IMG/VR virus record: IMGVR_UViG_3300028048_000085
Location: 54,851-118,850 of that record
Source: a virus
Lineage: Duplodnaviria; Caudoviricetes
Reading direction: 5' to 3' (one strand)
DNA: 64,000 nucleotides
Below the pieces are notes generated by a model. It had not been told where the DNA came from, ran no database searches, and saw only the letters and a program-made list of their open reading frames with translations. Shown here piece by piece: positions 49,310 through 49,434 of this stretch (positions are counted from its first letter, which is position 1; each line of letters begins with the position of its first letter). The position numbers and the translations under genes are program-made.

Positions 49310-49434
49310 TATTACAACGAGAGTTACACCACAATACAATATTACCAATGGAAAATGAATTAATTAAATGACCAAAATTAAATAAGGGAAATGAATCATT
49401 AAATGTACCAATATTAAATTACTGAAATGAGACC
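49310..49434 (+). ncRNA. TIGR-like dual-repeat mini-array 3 (3 full units, exact 36-nt period)
   Basis: AGAGTT/TGAATT/TGAATC/TGAGAC at 49320, 49356, 49392, 49428; (A/C)CAAWATTA 16 nt after each of the first three. Confidence 0.7.

What the first reader, a model, noticed from the sequence alone, without database searches (positions are those of the whole stretch)
49310..49434. Mini-array 3: exact 36-nt period with 9+9+9+9 geometry
Units read AGAGTTA-CACCACAAT-ACAATATTA-CCAATGGAA-AA / TGAATTA-ATTAAATGA-CCAAAATTA-AATAAGGGA-AA / TGAATCA-TTAAATGTA-CCAATATTA-AATTACTGA-AA / TGAGAC. The last repeat merges into the terminator stem. This is the cleanest evidence for the dual-spacer design.
Basis: seen in the sequence. 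Interest (0 to 1): 0.8.

Follow-up and report, generated by a model that had tools for sequence, protein, structure and literature searches.

The report
Three-unit TIGR guide-RNA mini-array
This 125-base stretch is a real, small array of three guide RNAs belonging to a published RNA-guided DNA-binding system (TIGR-TasA) of an uncultured giant phage, so it is a well-supported new example of a known kind and not a new system.

Summary
There are three 36-nt units at 49318-49425, then a cut-off fourth repeat that runs into a terminator hairpin.

The repeats are those of the phage's own ~75-unit dual-repeat array, 53 kb away on the other strand. Units 2 and 3 score 23.5 and 23.1 bits on a matrix built from that array. 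That is better than about 90% of the array's own units and above the best unit in 30 shuffled genomes.

A nuclease-free Tas protein lies 2.65 kb upstream on the same strand. Its ten best fold matches are all solved TasH or TasR structures.

The architecture matches the published definition of a dual-repeat TIGR array: edge, spacer A, loop, spacer B, truncated edges at both ends, and a terminator.

A relative (polymerase 66% identical) has a two-unit array at the same site. It uses its own repeat variant and unrelated spacers (repeat columns 25/36 identical, spacer columns 11/36). Other relatives have none, or about 60 units, at that site.

Expression, processing and targets are inferred, and no target was found. 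Units 2 and 3 look like a diverged tandem duplicate.

The scan had already noted this system in the same genome. I found no note of it on other DNA.

The parts
49318..49326 (+). First edge repeat, degenerate at its 5' side. Only the 3' six bases match the consensus AAYGARTYA. It corresponds to the 5'-truncated edge with which TIGR arrays typically begin.
   Evidence: PMC12045711
49327..49353 (+). Unit 1 body: spacer A 49327-49335, loop repeat 49336-49344, spacer B 49345-49353.
   Evidence: The loop core is a perfect match to the main-array loop.
49354..49389 (+). Unit 2: full edge 49354-49362, spacer A 49363-49371, loop 49372-49380, spacer B 49381-49389.
   Evidence: 23.5 bits on the main-array matrix, 91st percentile of main-array units
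49390..49425 (+). Unit 3: full edge 49390-49398, spacer A 49399-49407, loop 49408-49416, spacer B 49417-49425.
   Evidence: 23.1 bits, 89th percentile. Its spacers resemble those of unit 2.
49426..49433 (+). Terminal edge repeat truncated at its 3' side (first six bases kept). It overlaps the terminator stem.
   Evidence: matches the published array end
49430..49474 (.). 14-bp G+C-rich hairpin followed by a T run. It serves as terminator of the + strand operon and lies directly behind the stop of the convergent polymerase gene.
   Evidence: the centroid fold is this hairpin alone
48366..49309 (+). The two genes whose 3' untranslated region holds the array: a 254-aa protein with a bacterial Ig-like domain (48366-49130) and a 55-aa ORF (49142-49309).
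48351..48368 (+). Weak variant (3 mismatches) of the phage's recurrent promoter-like motif. It is the nearest candidate start for the transcript that carries the array.
46731..46748 (+). Strong copy (1 mismatch) of the same promoter-like motif, just after tasA. Reaching the array from here needs read-through of hairpins at 47815-47840 and 48290-48325.
45473..46666 (+). tasA: nuclease-free Tas (Nop-domain) protein, the presumed partner of the guides.
   Evidence: Profile against solved structures: TasR entry 9mty at E 1e-7, TasH at 2e-6. AlphaFold model with mean pLDDT 77. The ten best Foldseek matches are all TasH or TasR complexes.
49473..54281 (-). Convergent 1602-aa RNA polymerase beta-like gene. 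It was used as the anchor to find the orthologous site in relatives.

Best explanation
The stretch is a three-unit dual-repeat TIGR array, the one nearest to the phage's tasA gene.

Inferred mechanism:
1. It is transcribed as the tail of the mRNA for the 254-aa and 55-aa genes, up to the hairpin at 49430-49464.
2. TasA dimers bind the edge and loop repeats.
3. The transcript is cut in the middle of each edge repeat, releasing up to three 36-nt tigRNAs.
4. [quoted passage not shown]
5. TasA has no nuclease domain, so the expected outcome is binding and transcriptional blocking, not cleavage.

Shown here: the sequence architecture, its identity with the phage's other arrays, the presence of a Tas-fold protein, and conserved repeats with replaced spacers at the same site in a relative.

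Inferred from the published systems: transcription, processing, loading and repression.

Unknown: the targets.
For: - Exact 36-nt period and 9+9+9+9 layout; top tandem-repeat score in the window.
- The repeats equal those of the ~75-unit array at genome 48280-51760.
- Units 2 and 3 score at the 89th-91st percentile of that array's own units and above every unit in 30 shuffled genomes.
- A 5' truncated first edge, a 3' truncated last edge and a terminator, as described for TIGR arrays in PMC12045711.
- Arrays of one to three units are processed in heterologous expression.
- A Tas protein lies 2.65 kb upstream on the same strand.
- The same promoter-like motif precedes the main array, the tasA operon and the operons that carry all three mini-arrays (12 matches against 0.94 expected).
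- G003 (polymerase 66% identical, TasA 61%) has a 2-unit array at the same site. It uses G003's own edge variant, and its spacers are unrelated: repeat columns 25/36 identical against 11/36 for spacer columns, Fisher p 0.002.
- L069 and L072 carry about 55-60 units at the same site.
- TasA proteins act as RNA-guided repressors (bioRxiv 10.64898/2026.09.09.750476).
Against: - There are only three units, and the first has a poor 5' edge (7.0 bits).
- The nearest promoter-like motif is a weak variant. The strong one is separated from the array by two terminator-like hairpins.
- No target was found. In the held 119 kb of the phage and in 493 kb of related phage DNA, the best matches are no better than those of shuffled spacer pairings.
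- The array is absent at this site in the closest relative L058 (polymerase 70% identical, with a tasA) and in L023.
- Units 2 and 3 are near duplicates, so there may be only two distinct specificities.
- There are no RNA data.
Confidence: 0.82

Rival explanations
1. It is a decaying, no longer used remnant of a larger array that once occupied this site, as the ~60-unit arrays still do in L069 and L072. It is carried along passively in a 3' untranslated region.
For: - Only three units, with a degenerate first edge.
- The site holds large arrays in some relatives and nothing in others.
- No target was found.
- The promoter context is weak.
Against: - Units 2 and 3 have repeats better than about 90% of main-array units.
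- The 36-nt period is exact even though units 2 and 3 differ by what look like two compensating indels in spacer A.
- Between these two duplicates the repeat columns are 16/18 identical against 10/18 for spacer columns.
- The truncated terminal edge and the terminator are intact, and G003 keeps the same arrangement.
Confidence: 0.13
2. It is a DNA-level tandem binding site (iteron-like) for a phage or host protein, unrelated to RNA guides.
For: Short tandem repeats in an intergenic region between convergent genes could serve as such a site.
Against: - The motif is the same as in about 80 other units, which always lie in the direction of transcription and end at terminators.
- The columns between repeats are not conserved in the relative G003.
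- A Tas protein that binds exactly this RNA architecture is encoded nearby.
Confidence: 0.03
3. It is a chance or purely mutational tandem duplication in A+T-rich spacer DNA with no relation to the arrays.
For: Units 2 and 3 are similar beyond the repeats (TRF 83% matches).
Against: - Unit 1 shares only the repeat columns with units 2 and 3.
- Scores exceed all shuffles.
- The same design occurs at the orthologous site in G003 with different spacers.
Confidence: 0.02

Closest known systems
Dual-repeat TIGR-TasA systems (for example FpTIGR of Flavonifractor plautii; Faure et al. 2025, PMC12045711; Xu et al. 2026, bioRxiv 10.64898/2026.09.09.750476)
   Same: - Alternating edge and loop repeats with two ~9-nt spacers and a 36-nt unit.
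- Truncated edges at both ends and a rho-independent terminator.
- A nuclease-free Nop-domain Tas protein on the same strand.
- An array downstream of tas.
   Different: - Three units instead of the usual 5-15.
- It sits behind five to six small genes, 2.65 kb from tasA, in an mRNA 3' untranslated region.
- It is one of four arrays scattered over more than 55 kb of a giant phage genome.
- The repeats begin with AA and end with TYA or TTA, where TasR arrays have UG and CCA.
SpTIGR-TasH of Salicola phage CGphi29 (solved structures 9w03, 9w04, 21kl)
   Same: A phage-borne dual-repeat system. It gives the best structural matches to the partner protein.
   Different: TasH carries an HNH nuclease and cuts DNA. 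The protein here has no nuclease domain, and sequence identity is only about 15%.
Virus-borne CRISPR mini-arrays and solitary repeat units (from my own knowledge of the literature, not checked here)
   Same: Very short guide arrays carried by viruses, away from any large array, presumably feeding an effector encoded elsewhere.
   Different: CRISPR uses one 25-36-nt repeat and one spacer of about 30 nt per unit, plus Cas proteins. Here there are two short repeats, two 9-nt spacers and a Tas protein.
Polycistronic box C/D snoRNA clusters
   Same: Tandem short guide RNAs with two guide segments each, bound by Nop-domain proteins and cut out of a longer transcript (discussion of PMC12045711).
   Different: snoRNAs guide RNA methylation with fibrillarin and L7Ae and have K-turns. 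Nothing of that kind is seen here.

Membership tests
TIGR dual-repeat array (Faure et al. 2025) | Two distinct alternating short repeats (edge and loop, 8-12 nt) | tested here: met
   Edge AAYGARTYA and loop CAAWATTA alternate three times. The column information profile of the main array shows the same two blocks.
TIGR dual-repeat array (Faure et al. 2025) | Two variable spacers of about 9 nt per unit, with a unit of 36 nt | tested here: met
   Exact 36-nt period and 9-nt spacers. Spacer columns carry about 0-0.4 bits in the main array. They are at chance-level identity with G003 (11/36).
TIGR dual-repeat array (Faure et al. 2025) | Begins with a 5' truncated edge and ends with a 3' truncated edge followed by a rho-independent terminator | tested here: met
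   The first edge keeps only its 3' six bases and the last edge only its 5' six bases. The hairpin plus T run is at 49430-49474.
TIGR dual-repeat array (Faure et al. 2025) | Repeat sequences shared by the arrays of one system and differing between systems | tested here: met
   Units 2 and 3 score at the 89th-91st percentile of the phage's main array. The G003 mini-array uses G003's own edge variant, which does not occur in this phage's arrays.
TIGR dual-repeat array (Faure et al. 2025) | A Tas (Nop-domain) gene in the neighbourhood | tested here: met
   The gene is at 45473-46666. A profile gives E 1e-7 to TasR entry 9mty and 2e-6 to TasH. The ten best fold matches are all TasH or TasR. It lies 2.65 kb upstream on the same strand.
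TIGR dual-repeat array (Faure et al. 2025) | Box C and box D letters covary between edge and loop repeats | tested here: inconclusive
   In this phage both repeats start with AA and end with TYA or TTA. In L069 and L072 both end with TCA. In G003 the edge ends TCA and the loop TTA. No pairing or structural test was possible.
TIGR dual-repeat array (Faure et al. 2025) | Transcribed and processed into 36-nt tigRNAs bound by the Tas protein | not testable with these tools
   No RNA data are available. There are only promoter-like motifs and a terminator.
TIGR dual-repeat array (Faure et al. 2025) | Guides match DNA targets with spacers A and B on opposite strands, 0-2 bp apart | tested here: inconclusive
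   Both possible geometries were searched in the held phage genome and in 493 kb of related phage DNA. The best matches have 2-4 mismatches, the same as shuffled spacer pairings. The host genome and the missing part of the phage genome were not available.
CRISPR array | One repeat of 25-36 nt alternating with one spacer of similar size | tested here: not met
   There are two different 8-9-nt repeats and two 9-nt spacers per 36-nt unit.
Iteron-like protein-binding tandem site | The whole unit, including the inter-repeat columns, is conserved among relatives | tested here: not met
   Against G003, spacer columns are 11/36 identical and repeat columns 25/36. The unit number differs (3, 2, 0 or about 60) among relatives.

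The most novel reading that the evidence does not exclude
In this phage clade, TIGR guides may arise in place by tandem duplication of units followed by mutation, with selection keeping the repeats and the 36-nt spacing. They would then not be acquired from targets. That would bear on the open question of how TIGR arrays gain spacers.

Hints:
- Units 2 and 3 are more alike in their spacers than 99.5% of unit pairs in the main array, and they differ in spacer A by what look like two compensating indels.
- The 3' end of the L069 array shows a fresh 36-nt duplication whose boundaries lie in the loop repeats, which creates a new A/B pairing.
- The main array has a three-unit, 109-nt higher-order repeat.
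Probability: 0.3. Interest if true: 0.6.

Novelty: new member of a known kind. Interest (0 to 1): 0.35.

Why it matters
It shows that a giant phage spreads its TIGR guides over several loci. These include very short arrays that ride in the 3' untranslated regions of ordinary operons, far beyond the few kilobases around tas that array finders inspect. The site between the tasA operon and the polymerase gene is a recurrent array position whose content turns over quickly among relatives (0, 2, 3 or about 60 units). That gives a natural series for studying how TIGR arrays grow, shrink and change guides, which the published papers list as unsolved. It does not reveal a new mechanism.

Tried and rejected
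Searches that returned nothing:
- blastn of 48300-50300 against the phage collection: no match.
- Rfam on the whole window and ARAGORN: nothing.
- Single-protein searches with the polymerase C-terminus in viral and metagenome contigs: nothing confirmed. Alignment-based searches then worked.

Comparisons that came out negative:
- The orthologous polymerase 3' ends in G001 and G007 (42-44% identical) carry other genes and no array.
- Mini-array 3 shares no spacer with the main array or the other mini-arrays, nor with arrays of relatives.
- Target searches in the phage's own genome and in relatives gave nothing above the controls.

Methods that did not work:
- TRF and a k-mer chain detector are poor array finders here.

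Deliberately not run:
- A single-guide scan of the public genome collection. An 18-mer is expected to occur tens of times by chance in 596 Gb, so hits would not be interpretable.

Considered and rejected: small ORFs (none of 30 aa lies inside the stretch), a structured RNA (only the terminator folds, z -1.8) and CRISPR.

Full report
**Observation.** The stretch lies between the stop codon of a 55-aa ORF (49142-49309, + strand) and the stop of a convergent 1602-aa RNA polymerase beta-like gene (49473-54281, - strand).
- Units start at 49318, 49354 and 49390, and a cut-off fourth repeat starts at 49426. The period is exactly 36.
- Each unit is a 9-nt edge (consensus AAYGARTYA), 9 variable bases, a 9-nt loop (core CAAWATTA) and 9 variable bases.
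- The last repeat overlaps a 14-bp G+C-rich hairpin at 49430-49464, which is followed by a T run.
- Tandem Repeats Finder reports period 36 and score 105, the highest in the window.
- No ORF of 30 aa lies inside the stretch. Nothing but the terminator folds. There is no Rfam or tRNA match.

**Link to the main array.** Earlier notes of this scan on the same genome pointed to a large array upstream of the window and to the TIGR-Tas papers, and I checked both.
- The held genome is one 118,850-nt virus record, and the window is 54851-118850 of it.
- At genome 48280-51760, on the minus strand, lie about 75 units with the same two repeats.
- I built a position matrix from those units and scanned both strands. 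Runs of two or more consecutive units occur only at that array and at three short + strand sites: window 35049-35122, 39771-39845 and 49354-49390.
- Thirty dinucleotide-preserving shuffles give 0.23 such runs per genome. Their best single unit scores 22.2 bits.
- Units 2 and 3 here score 23.5 and 23.1 bits, at the 91st and 89th percentile of leave-one-out scores for the main array's own units.
- Unit 1 has a perfect loop but a degenerate 5' edge, for 7.0 bits in all.
- The column information profile of the main array shows two conserved blocks separated by two blocks with almost no information. Mini-array 3 conforms to that profile.

**Partner protein.** The gene at 45473-46666, on the same strand and 2.65 kb upstream, belongs to a large family found mostly on long phage contigs.
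- A profile of 24 members matches solved TasR (entry 9mty) at E 1e-7 and TasH at 2e-6. IS110-type recombinases follow more weakly.
- An AlphaFold model has mean pLDDT 77. Its ten best Foldseek matches are all TasH or TasR complexes at probability 1.00.
- No nuclease domain is seen, so the protein is a TasA.

**Comparison with the published definition.** Faure et al. (PMC12045711) define TIGR arrays by these features:
- alternating edge and loop repeats of 8-12 nt with 9-nt spacers A and B;
- processing into 36-nt tigRNAs cut in the middle of the edge repeats;
- a 5' truncated first edge, a 3' truncated last edge and a rho-independent terminator;
- a position upstream or downstream of tas.

All the sequence-level features are met here. 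The first edge keeps only its 3' half, and the last edge only its 5' half. The same paper reports that arrays of one to three units are processed. Xu et al. (bioRxiv 10.64898/2026.09.09.750476) report three further points: arrays occupy flexible positions around tas, dual-repeat guides are cut by a Tyr/His loop of Tas, and TasA acts as an RNA-guided transcriptional repressor.

**Transcription context (inferred from sequence).**
- A motif close to TCATATACTATATAYTTG occurs 12 times in the window, against 0.94 expected, and 11 of the 12 are on the + strand.
- Copies precede the main array (on its own strand), the tasA operon (44151), the operons that end in mini-arrays 1 and 2 (33383, 38866), and the block after tasA (46731).
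- A three-mismatch variant sits at 48351, directly before the 254-aa gene.
- The array is therefore most simply the tail of a 1.1-kb transcript from 48351. Alternatively it lies on read-through from 46731 across the hairpins at 47815-47840 and 48290-48325.
- TasA and all four arrays seem to use one promoter class, so I see no sign of differently timed guide sets.

**Relatives.** Alignment-based searches with the polymerase C-terminus gave 15 viral and 80 metagenome loci.
- G003 (polymerase 66% identical, TasA 61%). The tasA operon ends in a two-unit array directly before the shared terminator, which is the same position as here.
  - Its edges follow G003's own 17-unit array, including a GATTCA variant that this phage never uses.
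  - Its first and last edges are truncated in the same way.
  - With the two terminator-proximal units aligned, repeat columns are 25/36 identical and spacer columns 11/36 (Fisher p 0.002).
- L069 and L072 (57%). The same site holds arrays of roughly 55-60 units.
- L058 (70%, with a tasA and a small array upstream of it), L023/G010 (69%, with only a short divergent 248-aa Tas-like ORF), L024 and L026, and the more distant G001 and G007. None has an array at the site.

So the site is a recurrent array position whose content turns over quickly. The repeats track each phage's own system, and the spacers are replaced.

**Spacers.**
- None of the six spacers recurs in the main array, in the other mini-arrays or in arrays of relatives beyond chance.
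- Units 2 and 3 resemble each other. Their spacer similarity is 13 of 19, reached by only 0.5% of unit pairs in the main array.
- Their A spacers share a seven-base core shifted by one position, which suggests two compensating indels that preserved the 36-nt period.
- Between these two units the repeat columns are 16/18 identical and the spacer columns 10/18.
- I read this as a tandem duplication that has since diverged in the spacers.

**Targets.** The cleavage geometry in the paper (C-5 rule, 8-nt 3' overhangs) implies a target that reads spacer A followed by the reverse complement of spacer B. I searched this arrangement and the alternative one, with gaps of 0-2. The searches covered the held phage genome and 493 kb of related phage DNA, for all ~85 guides. 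The best matches have 2-4 mismatches, which is the same as for shuffled spacer pairings. The host genome and roughly half of the phage genome are not available, so the targets remain unknown.

**Verdict.** The stretch is a small, tasA-proximal, dual-repeat TIGR array.
- That it is a member of the phage's TIGR-TasA system: about 0.8-0.85.
- That all three units yield working guides: about 0.6-0.7, because expression is inferred and unit 1 has a poor 5' edge.
- The main rival, a disused remnant: about 0.13.

It is a new member of a known kind. Its modest interest lies in the dispersed, untranslated-region-embedded arrangement and in the hints about array turnover and growth by duplication.

Noticed in passing
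window 8153, 11043, 26183, 32063, 33383, 38866, 44151, 46731, 48351, 54278 (+ strand); genome 51761 (- strand): A recurrent promoter-like motif close to TCATATACTATATAYTTG occurs 12 times in the window against 0.94 expected. Copies precede the main array, the tasA operon and the operons that carry the mini-arrays.
   Followed up: partly
L062-L066, within about 300 nt of the polymerase stop on the opposite strand (for example L066 around 5830-6130): Relatives with a 61%-identical polymerase carry a conserved G+C-rich element at the site where this phage has the mini-array. It starts with GGGGGACGGTGGYCGGGTATAGATAA and has further G+C-rich hairpin-like segments. It has no Rfam match and may be an unknown structured RNA.
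   Followed up: partly
L069 about 4270-4460 (reverse strand); also L072 5930-7900: These loci hold arrays of about 55-60 TIGR units at the polymerase-convergent site. In L069 the three units nearest the terminator show a fresh 36-nt tandem duplication whose boundaries lie in the loop repeats, so that one unit combines spacer A of one neighbour with spacer B of the other.
   Followed up: partly
genome 48280-51760 (upstream of the window): The main array alternates three edge types in a roughly 109-nt, three-unit higher-order repeat. It is interrupted by about 520 nt of non-array sequence at genome 49440-49960. Several spacers recur within it.
   Followed up: partly
L038 1501-2247 (G010): A relative with a 69%-identical polymerase has only a short (248 aa), divergent Tas-like ORF in the tasA position. 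No array was detectable with this phage's repeat matrix in the 71-kb record. The system may be degenerating, or it may use different repeats.
   Followed up: partly
window 46798-46989, 47020-47382, 47491-47799, 47888-48262; G003 18893-19804: In both phages the genes between tasA and the mini-array encode small proteins that are hydrophobic at the N-terminus and acidic or serine-rich at the C-terminus. They have no BLAST similarity between the two phages. They may be fast-evolving positional counterparts of unknown role.
   Followed up: no
L001 1480-1839 and L004 1-520 (G001, 244-kb phage): A more distant giant phage (polymerase 44% identical, TasA 53%) also has several separate short arrays with similar repeats, each ending at a terminator. 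Dispersed arrays are therefore not peculiar to this genome.
   Followed up: partly
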